A stretch of DNA of 6,276 nt. It comes from a virus. Both the position numbers and the translations under genes were made by a program. The DNA is taken from positions 1 through 6,276 of the IMG/VR virus record IMGVR_UViG_3300020029_000033. One strand, 5' to 3'. Under the pieces are notes generated by a model. That model saw only the letters and a program-made list of their open reading frames with translations. It made no database searches and had not been told where the DNA came from. Shown one piece after another: positions 1 through 6,276 of this stretch (position 1 is its first letter; every line of letters begins with the position of its first letter).

Positions 1-121
1 GTCTGACAATGCCGGGATACAACACAGTTAAATCGTTCCTCATCTGTCATACCGTCCATCACAGTAGATTGAGTAGGATGCATCTGGGCAAGGATATTAT
101 TAACGTTCATATCACCAAGCA
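1..121. repeat. Terminal direct repeat, copy 1 (assembly overlap of a circular genome)
   Basis: Bases 1-121 (gtctgacaatgccggg...atcaccaagca) were compared by eye with 6156-6276 and are identical. This implies a circular unit of 6,155 nt. Confidence 0.95.
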
Positions 122-2065: not shown

Positions 2066-3886
2066 TTAGACCATACGGTTAAATATATCATTAGCATCAT
2101 TCAATTTCTTATGCTTAATCATATCGCGGCAGAAGGTAGCAGCACGGAAATCAAGACACCGTTGTAAGTCGCTACTTTGCCCACTATCATAGGTACTTCT
2201 TGTATCGGGTTTCGCGGATTTGATGTAATTACAAGCCGCGAGAGATGGGATTCTGGGATCATCAAACGGAACGTATATCTGTTTTTTAATGGGACGAATA
2301 AATCCGTCTGCATATTCTCCGTCTTCTCCGATACCAATGGACGCCATTTCGCATCCCTCGGCTGGTACATAGAAATACCGAAGCATAGGGGCTGGCAAAG
2401 TCTGTTGTATTCGCAACGAATCACACATTCGTACATAGTCCGCTTTCTTTTCATATTCTATTCCGGTTTTGATGATAAAATTAATACGATTGGCATAAGA
2501 ATCAAGATTGCCACCGATGGGAGGCAAATGCCAATTTCTGAGAAACTTACTGACATAAAGGAATAGCCGATATAATTTATTAATATAAGATTCAATATCG
2601 ACATCAGAAGAACTGTTACAGAGCCTAGTAAGGCACCGAGCATTGTGTAATATAATTTCGTCTTCATTGGTTAGATGATGATTCAATGTAAGATACTGAT
2701 AATAAGCGCGAACAATAGAAAGGATAGAATCGGAATCATAATCTATAATACCGAACCTTGCCATTCTTTTTGGCGCGCTTGCAACAGCTCGAATAATTCT
2801 AGCAATCGAAACAGCATCATCATAGCGAGCACTTGAGAATCGGGGGAGTAAGGTACGGATATACGACACGGGGGGAGTTGATTTAACACTAATCCCGTTG
2901 AAGTTATAGATTCGTCCATTAACGACAGAATCGATCTTTTGTTCAATCGCGTGATAGATGTCTTCACCTTCCTCAAAAACCTCGCCTTTTTCAAAAAATC
3001 CAATAGACGCTCTCTGGCAGGGTCTAAACGCGCGGCATGATCTATATAATAGGGGAGCAGAACTAAGGCTGTTAACGTAACTCGCAACGTACGATGCAGC
3101 TCCACCGCGGGAAGTCTGGAAATCTGAACGACCGAGCTTCCAACTCTTATCATGACACTGTCGTAATACCTTTGAGACTTCTTTCGAGTTCGTGAATAAT
3201 AAGATATGATAATGCGGGCGGAAACGAAATGGTCCGTATTCACCCACAGCGTAGAAATGTAACGTTTCATAAGAACCTAAAGCCGTTTTTAAATGTTTAC
3301 GTAATCGTTTAATATAGTTCTGAACATCGACATAATTCAGAAAAGGAATAAGATTATCCCCGTATCTAACGGAAAGCTCTCCCTCTTTACCGTAAGGTGT
3401 AGCAGATTTCGTCTTAGCGATAAAAGAGCGAATAGCATCCATAGAAAGAAACCAATTATCTTTAACCGATTCATATTGACCTAATTCACGGTTATACGGA
3501 ACTGTACCCTGTACTTGTGTAAAGTATATATGTCGCAATTGTTGTGGATCTGTACAACAATATTCGGATACCGGAACAAACGAATGTTTTTCATAACCAT
3601 AAACAACGCCAGAATCACTTAAAACATCGTCGTATTCAGAATGATACACCTCACAATTAAACAACGGAATGTGCTCGTTATCATAAGTAAGCGTAACAAA
3701 CCAACAATGTTCAAAGGCACTTCCAGCGGTATTCACACGCATGGACGCCTTTTGAGCTCGCTTGTATATACAATAGTCACATTGACCGCAATCTACAGCG
3801 ATACGCTTACCTGTATATCTGTTGGTAATGAAAGAGCGATGCTGACAATGATCAGCAGCTTTAAGTAACTCCGGCGTATATTTCAT
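2066..3886 (-). CDS. VP4: Rolling-circle replication initiation protein (Microviridae VP4 / gpA-like HUH endonuclease)
   Basis: The ORF is 606 aa. RCR motif 1 is FVTLTY (nt 3683-3700). The HUH motif is HYHILLF (nt 3194-3214). The catalytic double-Tyr motif is YVASYV (nt 3074-3091; compare phiX174 gpA YVAKY). All three were verified by hand translation. An N-terminal Cys/His cluster C14-x-H16...C33-x2-C36-x2-C39 lies at nt 3770-3847. Confidence 0.93.
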   Translation of the reverse strand: MKYTPELLKAADHCQHRSFITNRYTGKRIAVDCGQCDYCIYKRAQKASMRVNTAGSAFEHCWFVTLTYDNEHIPLFNCEVYHSEYDDVLSDSGVVYGYEKHSFVPVSEYCCTDPQQLRHIYFTQVQGTVPYNRELGQYESVKDNWFLSMDAIRSFIAKTKSATPYGKEGELSVRYGDNLIPFLNYVDVQNYIKRLRKHLKTALGSYETLHFYAVGEYGPFRFRPHYHILLFTNSKEVSKVLRQCHDKSWKLGRSDFQTSRGGAASYVASYVNSLSSAPLLYRSCRAFRPCQRASIGFFEKGEVFEEGEDIYHAIEQKIDSVVNGRIYNFNGISVKSTPPVSYIRTLLPRFSSARYDDAVSIARIIRAVASAPKRMARFGIIDYDSDSILSIVRAYYQYLTLNHHLTNEDEIILHNARCLTRLCNSSSDVDIESYINKLYRLFLYVSKFLRNWHLPPIGGNLDSYANRINFIIKTGIEYEKKADYVRMCDSLRIQQTLPAPMLRYFYVPAEGCEMASIGIGEDGEYADGFIRPIKKQIYVPFDDPRIPSLAACNYIKSAKPDTRSTYDSGQSSDLQRCLDFRAATFCRDMIKHKKLNDANDIFNRMV

Positions 3887-3891
3887 AATTA

Positions 3892-4197
3892 TTATCTTTT
3901 ATCAATCACTTGGCGACGATCACGTGAACCAAATGAAACATGAATAAAATTAGGATAAATAATAAGTTGGTCAAAAGGAGAAAAACGATCAGAATAATCA
4001 TAGATCATCTCAAGCAACTTACTAAAACTAGTAGAGCCATAAGGCTTGATATCAATAGCTTCACCCATCAGATGTTGAGAATTAGGAGCGCCATTACAAG
4101 CCTTATTCTGTTCGGGAGTGCGACGTGCACTAGTTACTGTAAAATGAGTATTAGAAAGCAACAAATACTCCAGAAAACGCATAAGGAATAAATTCAT
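3892..4197 (-). CDS. Zinc peptidase, LAS-fold / peptidase M15 family (D-Ala-D-Ala carboxypeptidase-like); putative peptidoglycan hydrolase (endolysin)
   Basis: The ORF is 101 aa. TSARRTPEQNKACNGAPNSQHLMGEAIDI contains the canonical SxHxxGxAxD motif (S40, H42, G45, A47, D49; nt 4051-4080). A distal His86 sits in FIHVS (nt 3940-3942). Together these give the three expected Zn ligands H/D/H. The protein is the catalytic domain only, with no wall-binding domain. Confidence 0.82.
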   Translation of the reverse strand: MNLFLMRFLEYLLLSNTHFTVTSARRTPEQNKACNGAPNSQHLMGEAIDIKPYGSTSFSKLLEMIYDYSDRFSPFDQLIIYPNFIHVSFGSRDRRQVIDKR

Positions 4198-4277
4198 AAT
4201 CCAATAGCATTAAGAATGTAACCAAGAGCAGCAGAAATAGCACCAATTACGATTTTCCAAATATTATTACTTTTCAT
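4194..4277 (-). CDS. Small single-pass transmembrane peptide (27 aa), candidate holin-like/lysis accessory protein
   Basis: The sequence MKSNNIWKIVIGAISAALGYILNAIGL has a polar N-terminus followed by a 22-residue hydrophobic helix. Its TGA (4196-4194) overlaps the peptidase ATG (4197-4195) as ATGA. It fills the otherwise non-coding 73 nt between ORF64 and the peptidase. It is the C-terminal part of the 74-aa track ORF 4194..4418. Confidence 0.4.
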   Translation of the reverse strand: MKSNNIWKIVIGAISAALGYILNAIGL

Positions 4278-4461
4278 CAGATTGAGATTTAAGTTCAACG
4301 AAATCATTTTCTTCTTTAATTGAATCCACAATAACAATAAGACCCAACGGAGAAACTCGCTCAGAATAATTTCCAAGACCATCCAAAGAATTGACAATAT
4401 AAGGCGGCATAACATCACGACCAGTTTGTTTTTCTTTAAGGGAAATAATAAATTTTTGCAT
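4267..4461 (-). CDS. Hypothetical protein, 64 aa, acidic C-terminus
   Basis: This is the first ORF after the intergenic region, and its amino-acid composition is protein-like. It lies in a genome with almost no non-coding DNA. I recognise no motif in it. Confidence 0.5.
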   Translation of the reverse strand: MQKFIISLKEKQTGRDVMPPYIVNSLDGLGNYSERVSPLGLIVIVDSIKEENDFVELKSQSDEK

Positions 4462-4512
4462 AATTTTAAAATTTTTAATGTTAATAATTTAATGAGTTGG
4501 TTTCTACAGGGG

Positions 4513-4543
4513 CAAAGGAAAACATTATTTTTGAATAAACAAA
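4513..4543 (-). promoter_or_regulatory. Candidate Bacteroides-type promoter (-33 TTTG / -7 TAnnTTTG-like) for ORF64 and the downstream genes
   Basis: On the minus strand, TTTG (4543->4540) is followed by 19 nt and then TTCCTTTG (4520->4513). This differs by one mismatch from TAnnTTTG at the expected 19-21 nt spacing. The implied leader to the ATG at 4461 is about 45 nt. Confidence 0.3.
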
Positions 4544-4597
4544 ATATTTCGGAGTTTTTTTATTCTACAGTTGGGGTGTGAGTTGTGCGTTTATGGA

Positions 4598-4632
4598 CAA
4601 GAAAAGGCGAAATTGAGATGATAACTCAATTT
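4598..4632 (-). terminator. Candidate intrinsic terminator / hairpin
   Basis: A perfect 8-bp stem joins AAATTGAG (4610-4617) and CTCAATTT (4625-4632) around a 7-nt loop. In the minus sense it is followed by CGCCTTTTCTTG (4609->4598). It sits between the VP2 stop and the candidate promoter. Confidence 0.3.
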
Positions 4633-4669
4633 TCCTCCGGACACAACTAGGGGCTCCGCTTGAATGACA

Positions 4670-4718
4670 TAGGTGTATAGGCACGGCAAGTCAAGTCTGT
4701 CTTGCCTTTGCGCACCTA
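4670..4718. other. Long imperfect hairpin (about 15 bp in three helical segments)
   Basis: TAGGTG (4670-4675) pairs with CACCTA (4713-4718). GCA (4681-4683) pairs with TGC (4709-4711). GGCAAG (4685-4690) pairs with CTTGCC (4701-4706), enclosing a 10-nt loop. Confidence 0.5.
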
Positions 4719-4720
4719 CG

Positions 4721-4747
4721 TGCTAAAATACCGGAGCGGGGCGCTCC
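4721..4747 (-). terminator. GC hairpin followed by a T-tract, terminator-like
   Basis: GGAGCG (4733-4738) pairs with CGCTCC (4742-4747) around a 3-nt loop. In the minus sense the hairpin is followed by GGTATTTTAGC. Its arms have competing partners elsewhere in the island. Confidence 0.25.
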
Positions 4748-4805
4748 TATAAGGAAGTCGCTCCGCTCCATTTTTCGACCAGGCCCTATGCGGGCGGCAG
4801 GTGTA

Positions 4806-4826
4806 TATCGCTCAAACGCCGCGATA
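4806..4826. other. Hairpin
   Basis: TATCGC (4806-4811) pairs with GCGATA (4821-4826) around a 9-nt loop. An overlapping alternative pairs GCGGC (4794-4798) with GCCGC (4818-4822). Confidence 0.3.
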
Positions 4827-4856
4827 GGCTTCTAGTCCTGAAGTATGTACTAACAG

Positions 4857-6023
4857 CTAATAACCAATACCATTAGAACTATTATAAATAGTAGTATTAC
4901 GAGGACCGTAATCATTACGGAAAATCTGAGCACCGGGGCGCATAGATCCGATAACATTACCAGCACCAGAAGCAATACGAGATGTATAATCTATAGCATT
5001 ACGAAGGCCGTAGGATTCAAAATCCTTCTTGGCATTTCCAGCAGACCACTTATAATAGTCGCGCAAGGCCTTATCCTTAGAATACTGCATATTCTTACGA
5101 TTATTGACGTTCTTATAATCCCAAAGAGAATCATAATACTGTGTATAGTAAGCCATATTAGTAGCACTTATAAGAGCATCAGCAGTACCAGCAGCTATCT
5201 TATTAGTAATCTTCTGTCCTTGCGCCTGAGCAGCTATCAGGATTGCACGTTGAATTTCAGTTCGAATCTGTTTCTCAGTTAAAGCTCCTTGTTGTACAAG
5301 GTTATAAAGATACTGGGCTTTTGTAAACAGATCTGCTTGCTGCTGGGCATCCATATACTTATTCATAATAGCTTGAGCATCAGACTGTAAATAGACCTGG
5401 GTCGTTTGAGCGGCAGAAAGCTTACCAGCAGTAACAGCGTTCTCTAATTGTTGACGCTCCATAGATTGGTCTAATTCAGCAGAAATACGACCTGTGTCCT
5501 TATTCCAATAACCAGATTGACCAACACCAATATTCTTATAATTAGTATCGCCTAAAATCCTATTTACCAAATAAGGAGTAAGAGTCTCTATCTGTTTAGA
5601 TTCAGAAAGAGCCTTTTTGGCTTGAGCAAACGAAGCCAAAGCAGTATCCACAGTTGAAAGGTCCGGATGAAAAGCCTGGTACGGAATAGGACTGACAGCA
5701 GAAGCTTGAGCACCAGAAGGTGAAGAACCCGAACCAGCACCAGTCTGAGCAGCAGAACCAGACATAAAAGGATTCAAACCACGAGCAATCATAGCTTCAG
5801 GAGAATTATATTCTCGCGACTCATCAACCATTTTTTCTTGCCAATCACGCTGCTTCTGGGCTTCCAGCATATTAAACTTATTAGTAGTCTGAGTATTGCG
5901 ATAATTAGCACGATTAGCGCTAGACTGTTGCAATGTACCGAAGATACCACCAATAGCAGCACCAAGGAAATGATGTTCATTTCTAGGAGAGAGCAGGCTC
6001 TCTCCAACTTCTAGAAACCTCAT
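4857..6023 (-). CDS. VP2: Minor capsid / DNA pilot protein (Microviridae VP2 / H-like)
   Basis: The ORF is 388 aa. It has a Gly-rich hydrophobic N-terminus (FLGAAIGGIFG). The segment AQKQRDWQEKM...EAMIARGLNPF (nt 5769-5864) matches the remembered VP2 pattern (..R.WqE.Ms......aGLNP). A G/S/A-rich linker is followed by a long Q/A-rich helical region, consistent with a coiled-coil tube. The ATG (6023-6021) overlaps the upstream TGA as ATGA. Confidence 0.85.
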   Translation of the reverse strand: MRFLEVGESLLSPRNEHHFLGAAIGGIFGTLQQSSANRANYRNTQTTNKFNMLEAQKQRDWQEKMVDESREYNSPEAMIARGLNPFMSGSAAQTGAGSGSSPSGAQASAVSPIPYQAFHPDLSTVDTALASFAQAKKALSESKQIETLTPYLVNRILGDTNYKNIGVGQSGYWNKDTGRISAELDQSMERQQLENAVTAGKLSAAQTTQVYLQSDAQAIMNKYMDAQQQADLFTKAQYLYNLVQQGALTEKQIRTEIQRAILIAAQAQGQKITNKIAAGTADALISATNMAYYTQYYDSLWDYKNVNNRKNMQYSKDKALRDYYKWSAGNAKKDFESYGLRNAIDYTSRIASGAGNVIGSMRPGAQIFRNDYGPRNTTIYNSSNGIGY

Positions 6024-6276
6024 TGTGCACTAGCGGCAGGGGCGGAATCCGTAGACGGCGCTGCCTGTTCCTCTGCCAGCATAGCTTGAGCATATGCAGT
6101 AAGATCGGATTTCTCATTAGCCAATTGCCGTAATACAGCTTGACGTTCAGACATTGTCTGACAATGCCGGGATACAACACAGTTAAATCGTTCCTCATCT
6201 GTCATACCGTCCATCACAGTAGATTGAGTAGGATGCATCTGGGCAAGGATATTATTAACGTTCATATCACCAAGCA
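6020..6276 (-). CDS. C-terminal part of the same 147-aa wrap-around VP3-like ORF (second window copy)
   Basis: The 81-aa track ORF 6020..6265 begins at an internal Met (residue 67 of the full ORF). Its reading frame stays open to the window end and continues, through the repeat, to the ATG at 308. The stop TGA lies at 6022-6020. Confidence 0.6.
   Translation of the reverse strand, partial: LGDMNVNNILAQMHPTQSTVMDGMTDEERFNCVVSRHCQTMSERQAVLRQLANEKSDLTAYAQAMLAEEQAAPSTDSAPAASAQ
6156..6276. repeat. Terminal direct repeat, copy 2 (assembly overlap of a circular genome)
   Basis: This segment is identical to bases 1-121. Confidence 0.95.

What the first reader, a model, noticed from the sequence alone, without database searches (positions are those of the whole stretch)
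4635..4850. GC-rich, hairpin-dense island in the only intergenic region
The base composition changes sharply within one non-coding region. By hand count, 4681-4800 is about 59% GC, the adjacent leader 4441-4500 is 15%, and a sampled coding line is about 37%. The island holds a roughly 15-bp composite hairpin (4670-4718), a 6-bp closing helix CTCCGG/CCGGAG (4635-4640 with 4731-4736) that encloses it, and further stems at 4733-4747 and 4806-4826. In phiX174 and G4 the intergenic hairpins of the virion strand are the complementary-strand origin (the PriA n-prime site and the DnaG-recognised oriC hairpins respectively). That is the most conservative reading here, because the coding (minus) strand should be the packaged strand. 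Other possibilities are a structured RNA at the 3' end of the capsid operon or a horizontally acquired fragment (attP or host-derived). Individual 6-bp stems are expected by chance, so the composition shift and the composite hairpin are the real signal.
Basis: partly seen in the sequence, partly recalled or inferred. Interest (0 to 1): 0.65.

Follow-up and report, generated by a model that had tools for sequence, protein, structure and literature searches.

The report
Folded DNA origin region of a microvirus
The GC-rich island is a real, strongly conserved folded element on the packaged DNA strand of a gut microvirus. It is most likely the site where the single-stranded genome starts to be copied, which is an expected kind of element in a new and unusually elaborate form.

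Summary
The window is a complete circular microvirus genome of 6155 nt, with all genes on the minus strand. The composition jump is exact: 59.2% GC at 4681-4800, 15.0% at 4441-4500, 40.2% genome-wide.

The island (true extent 4576-4843) has no ORF and matches no Rfam, tRNA or tmRNA model. It occurs at the same position in over 200 independent ~6 kb microvirus contigs and in no bacterial genome scanned. On 91 distinct copies, 57 base pairs are 98.5% kept and 20 show compensatory double changes (0/500 shuffles). G·T pairs and motif asymmetry place the fold on the coding strand, which is the virion strand.

The composite hairpin holds only in its inner part. The closing helix is not supported.

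Evidence favours DNA over RNA. The only three GCGNAGC/CCGNAGG "mini-hairpin DNA" motifs on the genome's coding strand lie in the island. Twelve distant microviruses show the same strand-specific clustering. In relatives much of the element lies between a terminator and the promoter.

A three-way junction (4581-4648) is conserved down to 27-37% capsid identity.

Best reading: a replication-origin module. Complementary-strand priming is the leading function, and a Rep nick site in the junction is possible. Nothing has been tested biochemically.

The parts
4576..4843 (-). Whole conserved non-coding island (coding/virion-strand sense), from CTTCAGGACTA to AACTCACAC
   Evidence: Alignments A1-A3. 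nhmmer finds it in about 110 full contigs. On the 57-pair structure, 98.5% of cells are paired and 20 pairs show double changes, with 0/500 shuffles as good.
4826..4838 (-). H0, small hairpin GGACT-AGA-AGCCT
   Evidence: helix 1: 94.8% paired, weak covariation (1 double change).
4807..4825 (-). The loop shows a G.T to T.G swap.
   Evidence: Pair 26-38 is GC:79, AU:9, CG:2 with none broken. Loop positions 30/33 are GT:75, TG:15, GC:1.
4799..4807 (-). Single-stranded repeat TATACACCT, copy 1
   Evidence: Direct repeat D3. These are the only two TATACMCC on the coding strand of the genome. The motif is also present in the gaps of distant relatives L272, L273 and L278.
4783..4799 (-). H2 (GCCC GCATA GGGC) plus a pseudoknot-like or alternative 3-bp helix (TGC with GCA of the H2 loop)
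   Evidence: H2 pairs: CG:86/GC:4/AU:1 and CG:88/UA:3. Pair 48-58: CG:80, GC:6, UA:5, none broken.
4760..4766 (-). Mini-hairpin C, GCGGAGC, inside the invariant GGAGCGRAGCGAC
   Evidence: Invariant in 91/91 (loop N is G in 84, A in 7). Also found as GGAGCGGAGCGAC in distant L273.
4733..4747 (-).
   Evidence: Terminator scan hit. Pair 101-113 is GC:56 against AT:31. Present with its T-run in 97/110 family genomes.
4722..4732 (-). GGTATTTTAGC, the T-run after the local hairpin
   Evidence: It becomes GGTATTTTTTGAC in L052.
4712..4723 (-). H4, GCAC-GTAG-GTGC
   Evidence: Pair AU:69 against GC:22, none broken. The loop is variable.
4681..4711 (-).
   Evidence: helix 8: 3 pairs with double changes. 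The apex varies in sequence and length.
4671..4679 (-). Single-stranded repeat TATACACCT, copy 2. A third copy (CTGTATACATCCAC) present in most relatives is missing here.
4653..4659 (-). Mini-hairpin A, GCGGAGC (GCGAAGC in most relatives)
   Evidence: The stem is invariant in 91/91. The equivalent hairpin is present in distant relatives.
4581..4648 (-). Three-way junction (3' domain). The closing helix is AGTTGTGT (4641-4648) with GCACAACT (4581-4588).
   Evidence: The closing helix has 3 consecutive pairs with double changes. A covariance model built from the family finds the same junction in 10 of 12 distant microviruses on the coding strand, and in an 11th by eye.
4634..4640 (-). Mini-hairpin B, CCGGAGG
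   Evidence: Outer pair is GC:52, CG:26, AU:7. Variants are GCGAAGC, CCGAAGG, ACGAAGT, GCGAAAGC and GCGAACGC. The GCGAAGC, GCGAAAGC, GCGAACGC and CC...GG forms are listed as stable DNA mini-hairpins (PMC13037366).
4610..4632 (-). H7, AAATTGAG [TTATCAT] CTCAATTT
   Evidence: 6 of 8 pairs have double changes. Up to 4 pair types per position in distant relatives.
4589..4609 (-). Conserved single strand of the junction, CGCCTTTTCTTGTCCATAAAC. Candidate primer start or Rep cleavage site.
   Evidence: CTTGTCYATAAACG is nearly invariant in the family. YCTCTTGTCY..AT is retained in distant relatives whose helices are all different.
4576..4580 (-). Invariant 3' flank CACAC
   Evidence: It is (G)ACAC or ACAG in distant relatives.
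4513..4543 (-). Neighbouring Bacteroidota-type promoter (TTTG, 19 nt, TTCCTTTG) that drives the downstream operon (ATG at 4461). Not part of the island, but it bounds it.
   Evidence: Read from the sequence. TTTG-N17-23-TnnnTTTG lies within 140 nt downstream of the island in 99/110 family genomes, and the strict TAnnTTTG form in 72. The consensus itself is from my own knowledge of Bacteroides promoters.

Best explanation
The island is a DNA-level cis element of the packaged (coding-sense) single strand. It is the replication-origin region of this microvirus, and its leading function is to start complementary-strand synthesis.

Proposed mechanism:
1. When the circular ssDNA enters the cell, host SSB coats it.
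2. The island folds on its own into a set of short GC-rich hairpins. These include three GCGNAGC/CCGNAGG mini-hairpins, which fold extremely stably as DNA and bind SSB poorly.
3. This leaves a naked, structured landmark.
4. A host priming enzyme loads there and makes the primer that converts the genome to the double-stranded replicative form. The enzyme would be primase acting directly, as at the phage G4 origin, or less likely RNA polymerase or a PriA primosome.
5. The 3' three-way junction (4581-4648) displays an invariant single strand (CTCTTGTCCATAAAC) beside a conserved loop. This strand is either the primer start site or the site that the viral Rep protein cuts and rejoins (the viral-strand origin). 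In the second case the two origins sit side by side, as in the f1/M13 intergenic region.
6. The hairpin 4733-4747 with its T-run also serves as the transcription terminator of the pilot-protein operon.

Shown here: the conserved structure, the strand it forms on, its modular anatomy, the clustering of mini-hairpin motifs, its restriction to ~6 kb microvirus circles, and the deep conservation of the junction.

Inferred: that it acts as DNA, every protein partner, and priming or nicking itself.
For: Real and selected:
- The island is found at the same place in 34 GenBank microviruses and in over 200 metagenomic circles.
- It is 73-84% identical in nucleotides where the neighbouring pilot protein is only 48-51% identical in amino acids.
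- Covariation is strong: 98.5% of cells paired, 20 pairs with double changes, 0/500 shuffles as good, and slid controls at 26-48% paired.

Strand:
- G.T against A.C cells are 351:59, or 153:53 without the doubtful long H3 helix.
- Mini-hairpin motifs are 306 on the coding strand against 33 on the complement in family islands.
- The coding strand is T-rich (33.3% T), as in microvirus virions (the comparison is from my own knowledge).

DNA rather than RNA:
- The only three GCGN(N)AGC/CCGN(N)AGG motifs on the coding strand of the whole genome lie in the island (P for 3 or more is 0.002 by shuffling). In the family the density is 9.7/kb inside against 0.39/kb outside.
- In 12 distant microviruses the density is 4.43/kb in the post-pilot gap against 0.33/kb elsewhere (p = 8e-18). 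The strand split in the gaps is 29:2.
- These motifs are the 'mini-hairpin DNA' class: Tm 76.5 C as DNA against 39 C for r(GCGAAAGC). They bind SSB poorly and occur at the G4/St-1/alpha3 priming site, in RSF1010 ssiA (CCGAAGG) and in N4 hairpin promoters (GCGGAGC) (PMC13037366).
- The two main stem variants seen here (GC..GC and CC..GG) are exactly the ones reported as allowed.
- The tetraloop variants in distant relatives (GATA, GTTA, GCTA, GGTA, GCCA) are not RNA-type GNRA.
- A 2-bp hairpin that covaries (GC:52, CG:26, AU:7) makes sense as DNA but hardly as RNA.

Position:
- In L065, L046, L132 and L009 a separate terminator precedes the whole island.
- In L070, L098 and L123 a terminator precedes the 3' domain. 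L108, the fourth relative with only the 3' domain, differs in its upstream region and was not scanned.
- In L274 a terminator precedes the whole 575-nt non-coding region.
- A promoter follows in 99/110 genomes.

Context:
- The element was never seen outside ~6 kb microvirus circles.
- There is no Rfam, tRNA or tmRNA match.

Precedent: conserved intergenic DNA hairpins with compensatory changes have been reported in other microvirus clades and tentatively tied to negative-strand initiation (PMC9865509).
Against: - There is no experiment of any kind, and no cultured member or known host.
- The fold has the same sense as the mRNA, so the strand test cannot separate RNA from virion DNA.
- RNA-like features exist. 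There is a pseudoknot-like covarying pair (48-58), an invariant T.G pair, and frequent G.T pairs if the long H3 helix is real.
- In the window and most relatives the terminator-like hairpin lies inside the island. The part from 4748 to 4843 is therefore probably transcribed as a 3' UTR.
- No sequence similarity to the G4 or phiX174 origins was shown.
- Complementary-strand origins are usually evolutionarily labile. The junction is conserved down to 27-37% capsid identity, which fits a Rep site better than a host priming site.
- Relatives with only the 3' domain (L070, L098, L123, L108) manage without the 5' domain.
- The standard DNA nearest-neighbour model does not itself predict the mini-hairpins. 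Their stability rests on the literature.
Confidence: 0.55

Rival explanations
1. The deeply conserved three-way junction (4581-4648) is the viral-strand (+) origin. The HUH Rep protein recognises hairpin H7 and its loop, then cuts and later rejoins the exposed strand near CTTG. The 5' domain is then the complementary-strand origin and/or the terminator. This overlaps the best explanation rather than excluding it.
For: - The junction architecture and its single strand (YCTCTTGTCY..AT) persist in 10-11 of 12 microviruses with 27-37% capsid identity, while every helix changes sequence. This is the pattern of Rep nick sites with variable stems.
- A hairpin followed by a conserved single strand is the usual HUH substrate (my own knowledge).
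- CTTG is also the sequence cut by phiX174 protein A (CAACTTG^ATA; my own knowledge).
- Relatives that lack the 5' domain keep the junction.
- The two origins are adjacent in f1/M13 (my own knowledge).
Against: - The window has no match to the phiX174 30-nt origin at up to 3 mismatches.
- The phiX174/G4 origin lies inside gene A and needs no hairpin (my own knowledge).
- No nick mapping is available.
- The mini-hairpins flanking the junction are known from priming sites, not from Rep origins.
- A shared host phylum could equally explain conservation of a host-factor site.
Confidence: 0.3
2. The island is a structured RNA. It would be either a stable non-coding RNA or a 3'-UTR element of the pilot-protein mRNA (stabiliser, processing site or regulator), folding as mapped here.
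For: - It has coding-sense orientation and starts 14 nt after the pilot-gene stop codon in the window.
- Covariation is strong and includes a pseudoknot-like pair and G.U-type pairs.
- The hairpin plus U-run at 4724-4747 implies that at least 4748-4843 is transcribed.
- The RNA fold z-score is -2.65.
Against: - There is no Rfam hit even at E up to 10 on the island alone, and no tRNA or tmRNA.
- In several lineages the island or its 3' domain lies downstream of an intrinsic terminator and upstream of the promoter, with no room for a promoter of its own.
- The hairpin loops are GNA triloops and non-GNRA tetraloops on 2-bp stems. These are stable as DNA but weak as RNA.
- The only RNA-labelled runs that hold it are wastewater total-nucleic-acid assemblies. 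Their depth simply follows sequence conservation.
Confidence: 0.14
3. The island carries an attP or dif-like site for XerC/D-mediated integration, as proposed for Bacteroidales microvirus proviruses, or it is a fragment captured from the host.
For: - Proviruses of Bacteroidetes microviruses are flanked by dif-like sites in the region between the pilot gene and the rep-proximal genes (PMC3091885).
- The palindromic TGTATACA in the third repeat of most relatives faintly recalls a dif core (the comparison is from my own knowledge).
Against: - The 3' domain pattern has no match in 185,579 bacterial and archaeal genomes.
- No capsid relative was found in those genomes.
- All 120 metagenome contigs returned and all 111 viral contigs returned are about 6 kb circles or concatemers.
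- The window itself lacks the TGTATACA copy.
- A 28-bp recombination site would not need about 270 nt of covarying, strand-specific structure.
Confidence: 0.03

Closest known systems
Complementary-strand origin of phages G4, St-1, alpha3 and phiK (primase-dependent, F-G intergenic region)
   Same: - An intergenic element on the virion strand of a microvirus.
- Several conserved stem-loops.
- It contains the GCGNNAGC/GCGNAGC mini-hairpin motif at or near the priming hairpin, in a form that can switch between a long hairpin and a mini-hairpin. Here that is the H3 5' arm GGAGCGGAGCGAC (PMC13037366).
   Different: - About 270 nt with roughly ten helices and a three-way junction, against about 140 nt with three hairpins.
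- No sequence relationship has been shown.
- The host is probably Bacteroidota, not E. coli.
- The priming enzyme and start site are unknown.
phiX174 primosome assembly site (n'/PriA site) in the F-G intergenic region
   Same: A hairpin in an intergenic region of the virion strand that nucleates complementary-strand priming (my own knowledge; also PMC9865509).
   Different: That site is a single hairpin region of about 55 nt recognised by PriA. Nothing here points to PriA, and the island is much larger and modular.
Intergenic region of filamentous phages f1/M13/fd
   Same: One large non-coding region between a terminator and a promoter. It holds a row of hairpins that act in the single strand, with the minus-strand and plus-strand origins side by side (my own knowledge). 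This is the best analogy for the two-domain layout.
   Different: - A different virus family, and Rep is used differently.
- The f1 minus origin mimics a sigma-70 promoter. No promoter mimic was seen in the stems here.
- No packaging signal is expected in a microvirus.
Single-strand initiation signals of plasmids (RSF1010 ssiA/ssiB; G4-type ssi of F, R6K, ColE2) and the ssoA-type origins of rolling-circle plasmids
   Same: - Strand-specific folded DNA that recruits a primase or RNA polymerase.
- ssiA carries the same CCGAAGG mini-hairpin.
- sso elements are 150-300 nt, of similar size (my own knowledge).
   Different: - RSF1010 uses its own primase, RepB'. This virus encodes no recognisable primase.
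- The ssoA landmarks RSB and CS-6 were not tested.
Conserved intergenic DNA hairpins of reekeekee- and roodoodoo-microviruses (PMC9865509)
   Same: Intergenic hairpins conserved within a microvirus clade, with compensatory substitutions and identical loops. They were proposed, without proof, to start negative-strand synthesis.
   Different: Those are one or two simple hairpins of 13-64 nt in tiny genomes. Here there is a multi-helix element of about 270 nt with a junction conserved across much deeper divergence and a mini-hairpin signature.
Phage N4 virion-RNA-polymerase hairpin promoters
   Same: A DNA hairpin with a GGA or GAA triloop (GCGGAGC) that is read by a polymerase in single-stranded form. 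The window's motifs are GCGGAGC, GCGGAGC and CCGGAGG.
   Different: N4 brings its own polymerase and the hairpins extrude from double-stranded DNA. No such enzyme is encoded here.

Membership tests
G4-type primase-dependent complementary-strand origin | Lies in a non-coding region and folds on the virion strand | tested here: met
   No ORF. G.T against A.C is 351:59. Motif asymmetry is 306:33. The coding strand is T-rich. That the coding strand is the packaged strand is family knowledge, not tested.
G4-type primase-dependent complementary-strand origin | Several stable stem-loops maintained by selection | tested here: met
   57 pairs, 98.5% kept, 20 with double changes, 0/500 shuffles. DNA fold z-score -3.87.
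G4-type primase-dependent complementary-strand origin | GCGNNAGC/GCGNAGC mini-hairpin at the priming hairpin | tested here: met
   Three motifs in the island and none elsewhere on that strand.
G4-type primase-dependent complementary-strand origin | Sequence homology to G4/St-1/alpha3 oric | not tested
Island-level blastn hits in the phage collection were confined to Dulem, Microviridae sp. and Microvirus sp. records.
G4-type primase-dependent complementary-strand origin | SSB plus primase alone make a primer at a unique start site | not testable with these tools
   Needs biochemistry.
phiX174-type primosome assembly site | Hairpin that activates the PriA (n') ATPase and assembles a primosome | not testable with these tools
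   Needs biochemistry. No sequence criterion was available.
f1/M13-type minus-strand origin | Hairpin stems that mimic the host promoter's two boxes | tested here: not met
   Sigma-70-like hits were no more than chance (2 found against 2.6 expected). Reading the sequence shows no TTTG / TAnnTTTG pair inside the stems. The TTTG in the H1 loop is absent in 15 of 91 copies.
HUH-Rep viral-strand origin (phiX174 type) | Match to the conserved 30-nt origin (CAACTTGATATTAATAAC...) | tested here: not met
   0 matches at up to 3 mismatches anywhere in the window.
HUH-Rep viral-strand origin (general) | Conserved single-stranded nick motif next to a hairpin whose stem varies | tested here: inconclusive
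   The junction strand YCTCTTGTCY..AT beside H7 fits this pattern across distant clades, but no cleavage data exist.
Mini-hairpin DNA (GCGNAGC / GCGNNAGC class) | Sequence definition, with GC..GC or CC..GG stems and a G...A loop frame | tested here: met
   4634-4640 CCGGAGG, 4653-4659 GCGGAGC, 4760-4766 GCGGAGC. Family variants are GCGAAGC, CCGAAGG, GCGAAAGC and GCGAACGC, against the published list.
Mini-hairpin DNA (GCGNAGC / GCGNNAGC class) | Actually folds and resists SSB or nuclease in the virion strand | not testable with these tools
   The nearest-neighbour DNA model does not predict it. Needs probing.
Intrinsic transcription terminator | GC-rich hairpin directly followed by a T/U run, at the end of an operon | tested here: met
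   4733-4747 plus GGTATTTTAG. The stem covaries. It is present in 97/110 genomes. The four genomes found to lack it have a separate terminator upstream.
Any described RNA family (Rfam 15), tRNA, tmRNA | Covariance-model or ARAGORN match | tested here: not met
   No hit at E up to 1 on the window. Only chance-level hits (E 1.4-5.5) on the island alone. No tRNA or tmRNA.
XerC/D dif-like attP of Bacteroidales microvirus proviruses | Integrated copies flanked by the site as direct repeats | tested here: not met
   No genomic copy of the element and no capsid relative in 185,579 genomes. All contigs are ~6 kb.
XerC/D dif-like attP of Bacteroidales microvirus proviruses | 28-bp dif-like sequence | not tested
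   The BMV att consensus is only in a figure that the library does not hold.

The most novel reading that the evidence does not exclude
The island is transcribed and acts as a structured non-coding RNA of about 270 nt. It would have a compact pseudoknot, a three-way junction and conserved single-stranded repeats, and would be shared by a large group of gut microviruses. As far as I know this would be the first non-coding RNA gene described in the Microviridae. The evidence disfavours this reading but does not exclude it, because RNA and virion DNA have the same sense.
Probability: 0.13. Interest if true: 0.8.

Novelty: new variant of a known kind. Interest (0 to 1): 0.55.

Why it matters
Microviruses related to this one are among the commonest DNA phages in human and animal guts. 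None of this clade is cultured, and neither of its replication origins is known.

This work defines a conserved, strand-specific, covariation-supported element at nucleotide resolution that almost certainly holds at least one origin. It also gives a simple sequence signature for finding the equivalent region in other microviruses. The signature is a cluster of GCGNAGC-type DNA mini-hairpins on the coding strand downstream of the pilot gene, plus a three-way junction with a CTCTTGTCC strand.

The origin question becomes directly testable with oligonucleotides, purified Rep, SSB and primase.

The element would be the natural cis module for building replicons or phagemids for Bacteroidales.

It extends the link between mini-hairpin DNA and ssDNA initiation sites from a few E. 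coli examples to a whole phage group.

It also warns annotators that the short 'hypothetical proteins' called across this region in some GenBank records are probably not genes.

Tried and rejected
- **RNA evidence.** The only runs labelled RNA that hold the sequence are wastewater total-nucleic-acid assemblies kept as contigs. Depth along 3800-5600 simply follows how conserved each segment is among co-occurring relatives. These data say nothing about transcription.
- **Rfam and ARAGORN.** Nothing found.
- **Prophage or host origin.** The pattern scan and the capsid-based scan of 185,579 genomes both came back empty. The metagenome scan returned only ~6 kb circles and concatemers.
- **Rep C-terminal half (about 330 aa, no family match).** I tried to see whether it is a primase or helicase. 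The AlphaFold model from a shallow alignment (87-96% identical homologues) was unusable (pLDDT 34), so no fold search was run. PDB sequence search and PHROGs gave nothing beyond the N-terminal Rep domain.
- **Long-range helix CTTC/GAAG proposed by RNAalifold.** Dropped. It has no double changes, its 3' strand is the invariant GCGAAGC mini-hairpin, and relatives without the 5' domain keep that sequence.
- **Long 15-bp H3 hairpin.** Demoted to a possible alternative conformer. The 31 sequences with G-to-A at 101 are exactly those with C-to-T at 113, which is one compensatory change in the local hairpin rather than two coincident wobbles.
Not supported by covariation.
- **phiX174-like origin sequence.** Absent.
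- **Literature searches.** No description of this element was found in searches on Alpavirinae or Microviridae intergenic structure, ncRNA or nick sites.
Full report
**What the window is.** The 6276 bases are a complete circular genome of 6155 nt with a 121-nt terminal overlap. All long ORFs are on the minus strand:
- major capsid protein, 319-2049 (Phage_F);
- a 606-aa replication initiator, 2066-3886 (REP_ORF2-G2P, phrog_942);
- an M15 peptidase, 3892-4197;
- small overlapping ORFs, 4194-4461;
- a 388-aa pilot protein, 4857-6023.

The closest records are uncultured gut microviruses from lemur, dog and human samples, at 72-85% identity over 89-98% of the genome among the listed records. The only sizeable non-coding stretch is 4462-4856. 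The coding strand is T-rich (33.3% T, 26.5% A). In Microviridae the coding strand is the packaged strand (family knowledge).

**Observation check.** The island contains the GC maximum of the genome. Folding of 4600-4860 is better than dinucleotide shuffles on either strand and with either parameter set, with z from -2.65 to -3.87. So the signal is real. Folding energy alone cannot tell which strand or which molecule is involved.

**Conservation.** The island is present at the same position in three collections:
- 34 GenBank phage records;
- 31 of the 40 loci then held, 37 of which had been fetched through the pilot protein;

Every contig is about 6 kb or a concatemer of that unit. The same pattern has no match in 185,579 bacterial and archaeal genomes, and the capsid protein has no relative there. 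Where the pilot protein next door is only 48-51% identical in amino acids, the island is still 73-84% identical in nucleotides. Across 111 full genomes it is as conserved as the best parts of the capsid gene. It has no conserved ORF. The short 'hypothetical proteins' that some records annotate across it differ from record to record.

**Structure and strand.** The alignment holds 91 distinct copies in coding-strand orientation (A3). A structure of 57 pairs is kept in 98.5% of cells, and 20 pairs show changes on both sides. None of 500 column shuffles reaches these values, and sliding the partners by 1-3 columns drops pairing to 26-48%.

Read 5' to 3' on the coding strand, the parts are:

| Part | Window coordinates | Note |
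|---|---|---|
| H0 | 4826-4838 | small hairpin |
| H1 | 4807-4825 | |
| TATACACCT, copy 1 | 4799-4807 | single-stranded repeat |
| H2 plus short helix | 4783-4799 | a 3-bp helix pairs its loop with the upstream strand |
| GGAGCGRAGCGAC | contains 4760-4766 | invariant; holds mini-hairpin C |
| Local hairpin GGAGCG/CGCTCC | 4733-4747 | followed by GGTATTTTAGC |
| H4 | 4712-4723 | |
| H5 | 4681-4711 | |
| TATACACCT, copy 2 | 4671-4679 | single-stranded repeat |
| Mini-hairpin A | 4653-4659 | |
| Three-way junction | 4581-4648 | closing helix, mini-hairpin B (4634-4640), H7 (4610-4632), 21-nt single strand CGCCTTTTCTTGTCCATAAAC |
| CACAC | 4576-4580 | invariant 3' flank |

The pair between the H2 loop and the upstream strand reads CG:80, GC:6, UA:5, with none broken.

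G.T pairs outnumber A.C combinations 351 to 59. The ratio is 153 to 53 if the doubtful long H3 helix is left out. The fold is therefore on the coding strand. That strand is both the mRNA sense and the virion strand, so this test cannot separate RNA from DNA.

The stems at 4806-4826 and 4733-4747 are confirmed by compensatory changes, and so is the inner part of the 4670-4718 hairpin. Its outer stem conflicts with the covarying hairpin H4. The proposed closing helix 4635-4640/4731-4736 joins a self-contained mini-hairpin to the end of the terminator-like hairpin and shows no co-variation. RNAalifold's long 15-bp H3 hairpin is at best an alternative conformer. The G-to-A change at position 101 and the C-to-T change at 113 occur in exactly the same 31 sequences. 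That is one compensatory event in the local hairpin.

**DNA or RNA? Four observations favour DNA.**

*First, the mini-hairpin motifs.* The motifs GCGN(N)AGC and CCGN(N)AGG occur three times on the coding strand of this genome, and all three are in the island (P about 0.002 by shuffling). In the family their density is 9.7 per kb inside the island against 0.39 per kb outside. The strand split in family islands is 306 on the coding strand against 33 on the complement.

These are the 'mini-hairpin DNA' sequences (PMC13037366):
- Two G-C pairs plus a sheared G.A pair give a Tm of 76.5 C as DNA. The RNA counterpart r(GCGAAAGC) melts at 39 C.
- They bind SSB poorly.
- They occur at the primase site of G4 (GCGAAAGC) and of St-1/alpha3 (GCGTTAGC), in RSF1010 ssiA (CCGAAGG) and in N4 hairpin promoters (GCGGAGC).

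Mini-hairpin B covaries as GCGAAGC (52), CCGAAGG (26) and ACGAAGT (7). The first two are exactly the stem combinations reported as allowed. Other variants seen (GCGAAAGC, GCGAACGC) are also on the published list.

*Second, the signature is general.* I examined twelve microviruses whose capsid is only 27-37% identical to this one. In them the motif density is 4.43 per kb in the non-coding gap after the pilot gene against 0.33 per kb elsewhere (p = 8e-18). The strand split in the gaps is 29 to 2. Their loops are mostly GNA triloops. The tetraloops (GATA, GTTA, GCTA, GGTA, GCCA) are not the GNRA type expected in RNA.

*Third, position relative to transcription signals.*
- In L065, L046, L132 and L009 a separate intrinsic terminator precedes the whole island.
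- In L070, L098 and L123 a terminator precedes the 3' domain, and the 5' domain is absent. L108 also has only the 3' domain, but its upstream region is different and was not scanned.
- In L274 a terminator precedes the entire 575-nt non-coding region.
- Downstream, a Bacteroidota-type promoter (TTTG, 17-23 nt, TnnnTTTG) follows in 99 of 110 genomes.
- In the window the terminator-like hairpin lies inside the island. So 4748-4843 is probably a 3' UTR, while 4576-4723 lies between terminator and promoter.

*Fourth, context and database matches.* No described RNA family, tRNA or tmRNA matches. The element is never seen outside single-stranded DNA phage genomes.

**Modularity and deep conservation.** Some relatives carry only the 3' domain (L070, L098, L123, L108). 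L052 keeps only the H3 region and the 3' domain. In L065-type genomes the 3' arm of H3 is replaced by a second GCGAAGC. What is conserved there is the mini-hairpin, and the terminator has moved upstream.

I built a covariance model from the family's 3' domain alone. It finds full-length matches on the coding strand, in the non-coding gap, in ten of the twelve distant genomes (E from 7e-8 to 2.2). An eleventh is visible by eye. Every helix differs in sequence, with up to four pair types per position and almost none broken. Three features persist:
- the GAA-type mini-hairpins;
- the H7 loop (TTWAAYCC...);
- the junction strand (YCTCTTGTCY..AT) and the (G)ACAC flank.

**Mechanism.** My best account is that the island is the replication-origin region acting in the virion strand.
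1. After entry, SSB coats the genome.
2. The island folds, nucleated by the mini-hairpins, and stays free of SSB.
3. A host priming enzyme starts the complementary strand there, as at the G4 origin.
4. The junction strand is either the primer start or the Rep cut-and-rejoin site.

Complementary-strand origins are labile. For example, phiX174 and G4 use different mechanisms, whereas the viral-strand origin is conserved across that group (my own knowledge). For that reason I give real weight (0.3) to the junction being the viral-strand origin, with the 5' domain as the complementary-strand origin. This would be an f1-like side-by-side layout.

The structure, strand, motif statistics and distribution are shown here. 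Every protein partner and the DNA-level action are inferred.

**Rivals.**
- A structured RNA (0.14) remains possible because of the shared sense, the pseudoknot-like pair and the transcribed 5' third.
- An attP or host-derived fragment (0.03) has no support.
- An assembly artefact is excluded.

**Comparison and novelty.** In kind, this is what textbooks expect in a microvirus intergenic region. A similar inference has been drawn for simple hairpins in other microvirus clades (PMC9865509). It is not a demonstrated member of the G4, phiX174 or f1 origin families. Sequence homology was not shown, a promoter mimic is absent, and the phiX174 origin sequence is absent.

What is new:
- the size and architecture of the element;
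- the three-way junction conserved across very distant gut microviruses;
- the strand-specific clustering of mini-hairpin motifs as a general marker.

I found no description of it in the paper library.

**What led nowhere.**
- RNA-labelled public runs.
- The prophage search.
- The Rep structure model, pLDDT 34.
- The PDB sequence search.

Noticed in passing
window 1-121 and 6156-6276: The window is a complete circular genome written with a 121-nt terminal overlap. The unit length is 6155 nt.
   Followed up: yes
window 4513-4543 (minus strand): A Bacteroidota-type promoter (TTTG, 19 nt, TTCCTTTG; many relatives have the perfect TAnnTTTG) lies upstream of the small-ORF/peptidase/Rep/capsid operon. 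It points to a Bacteroidota host, although no host or prophage was found.
   Followed up: partly
window 2066-3886 (minus strand), especially 2100-2500: The replication initiator is 606 aa, but only residues 22-272 match any Rep family. The C-terminal ~330 aa have no family or PDB match. The extreme C-terminal part is the least conserved coding stretch among relatives (29-31% coverage at 2201-2400). An AlphaFold model was unusable.
   Followed up: partly
window 4671-4680, against alignment A3 columns ~196-213: Most relatives carry a third repeat, CTGTATACATCCAC, after the second TATACACC. The window and a subgroup (L017, L021, L023, L001, L027, L015 and others) lack it. It is therefore dispensable. 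It contains the palindrome TGTATACA.
   Followed up: partly
L016, L012, L020, L013 (alignment A1 columns ~227-270): Some relatives have a ~40-nt insertion with its own hairpin (CTGGATCTATTAGTAATGGATCTAGGAC plus a T-run) between the third repeat and the 3' domain.
   Followed up: no
window 4816-4819 (H1 loop; positions 30 and 33 of the island): Two loop bases separated by only two nucleotides swap together (G..T in 75 copies, T..G in 15, G..C in 1). This suggests a pair that closes a two-base loop, or a contact with another part or a protein.
   Followed up: partly
window 4194-4461 (minus strand): Two overlapping small ORFs (74 aa and 64 aa, no family match) lie in the most conserved nucleotide stretch of the genome (85-89% identical positions across 111 relatives). 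The cause may be the overlapping frames or a further cis element.
   Followed up: no
L054 (7121 nt), L175 (7410 nt), L209 (9614 nt): These contigs hold two copies of the island about 6.1 kb apart. In L054 the two copies differ in sequence, so the contig is a heterodimer or a chimeric assembly of two related viruses rather than a simple concatemer.
   Followed up: no
L001 1871-2023; L003 1306-1602 (GenBank PP511799.1, OP549867.1): Some deposited records annotate short 'hypothetical protein' genes that run into the island. These ORFs are not conserved among relatives and are probably annotation artefacts.
   Followed up: partly
L070, L098, L123, L052 just upstream of the 3' domain: Relatives that lack the 5' domain share the conserved stretch TTTTTCCGAAAGTA(T/C) between their terminator and the 3' domain. 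The full-length island has no counterpart to it. Its role is unexplained.
   Followed up: no
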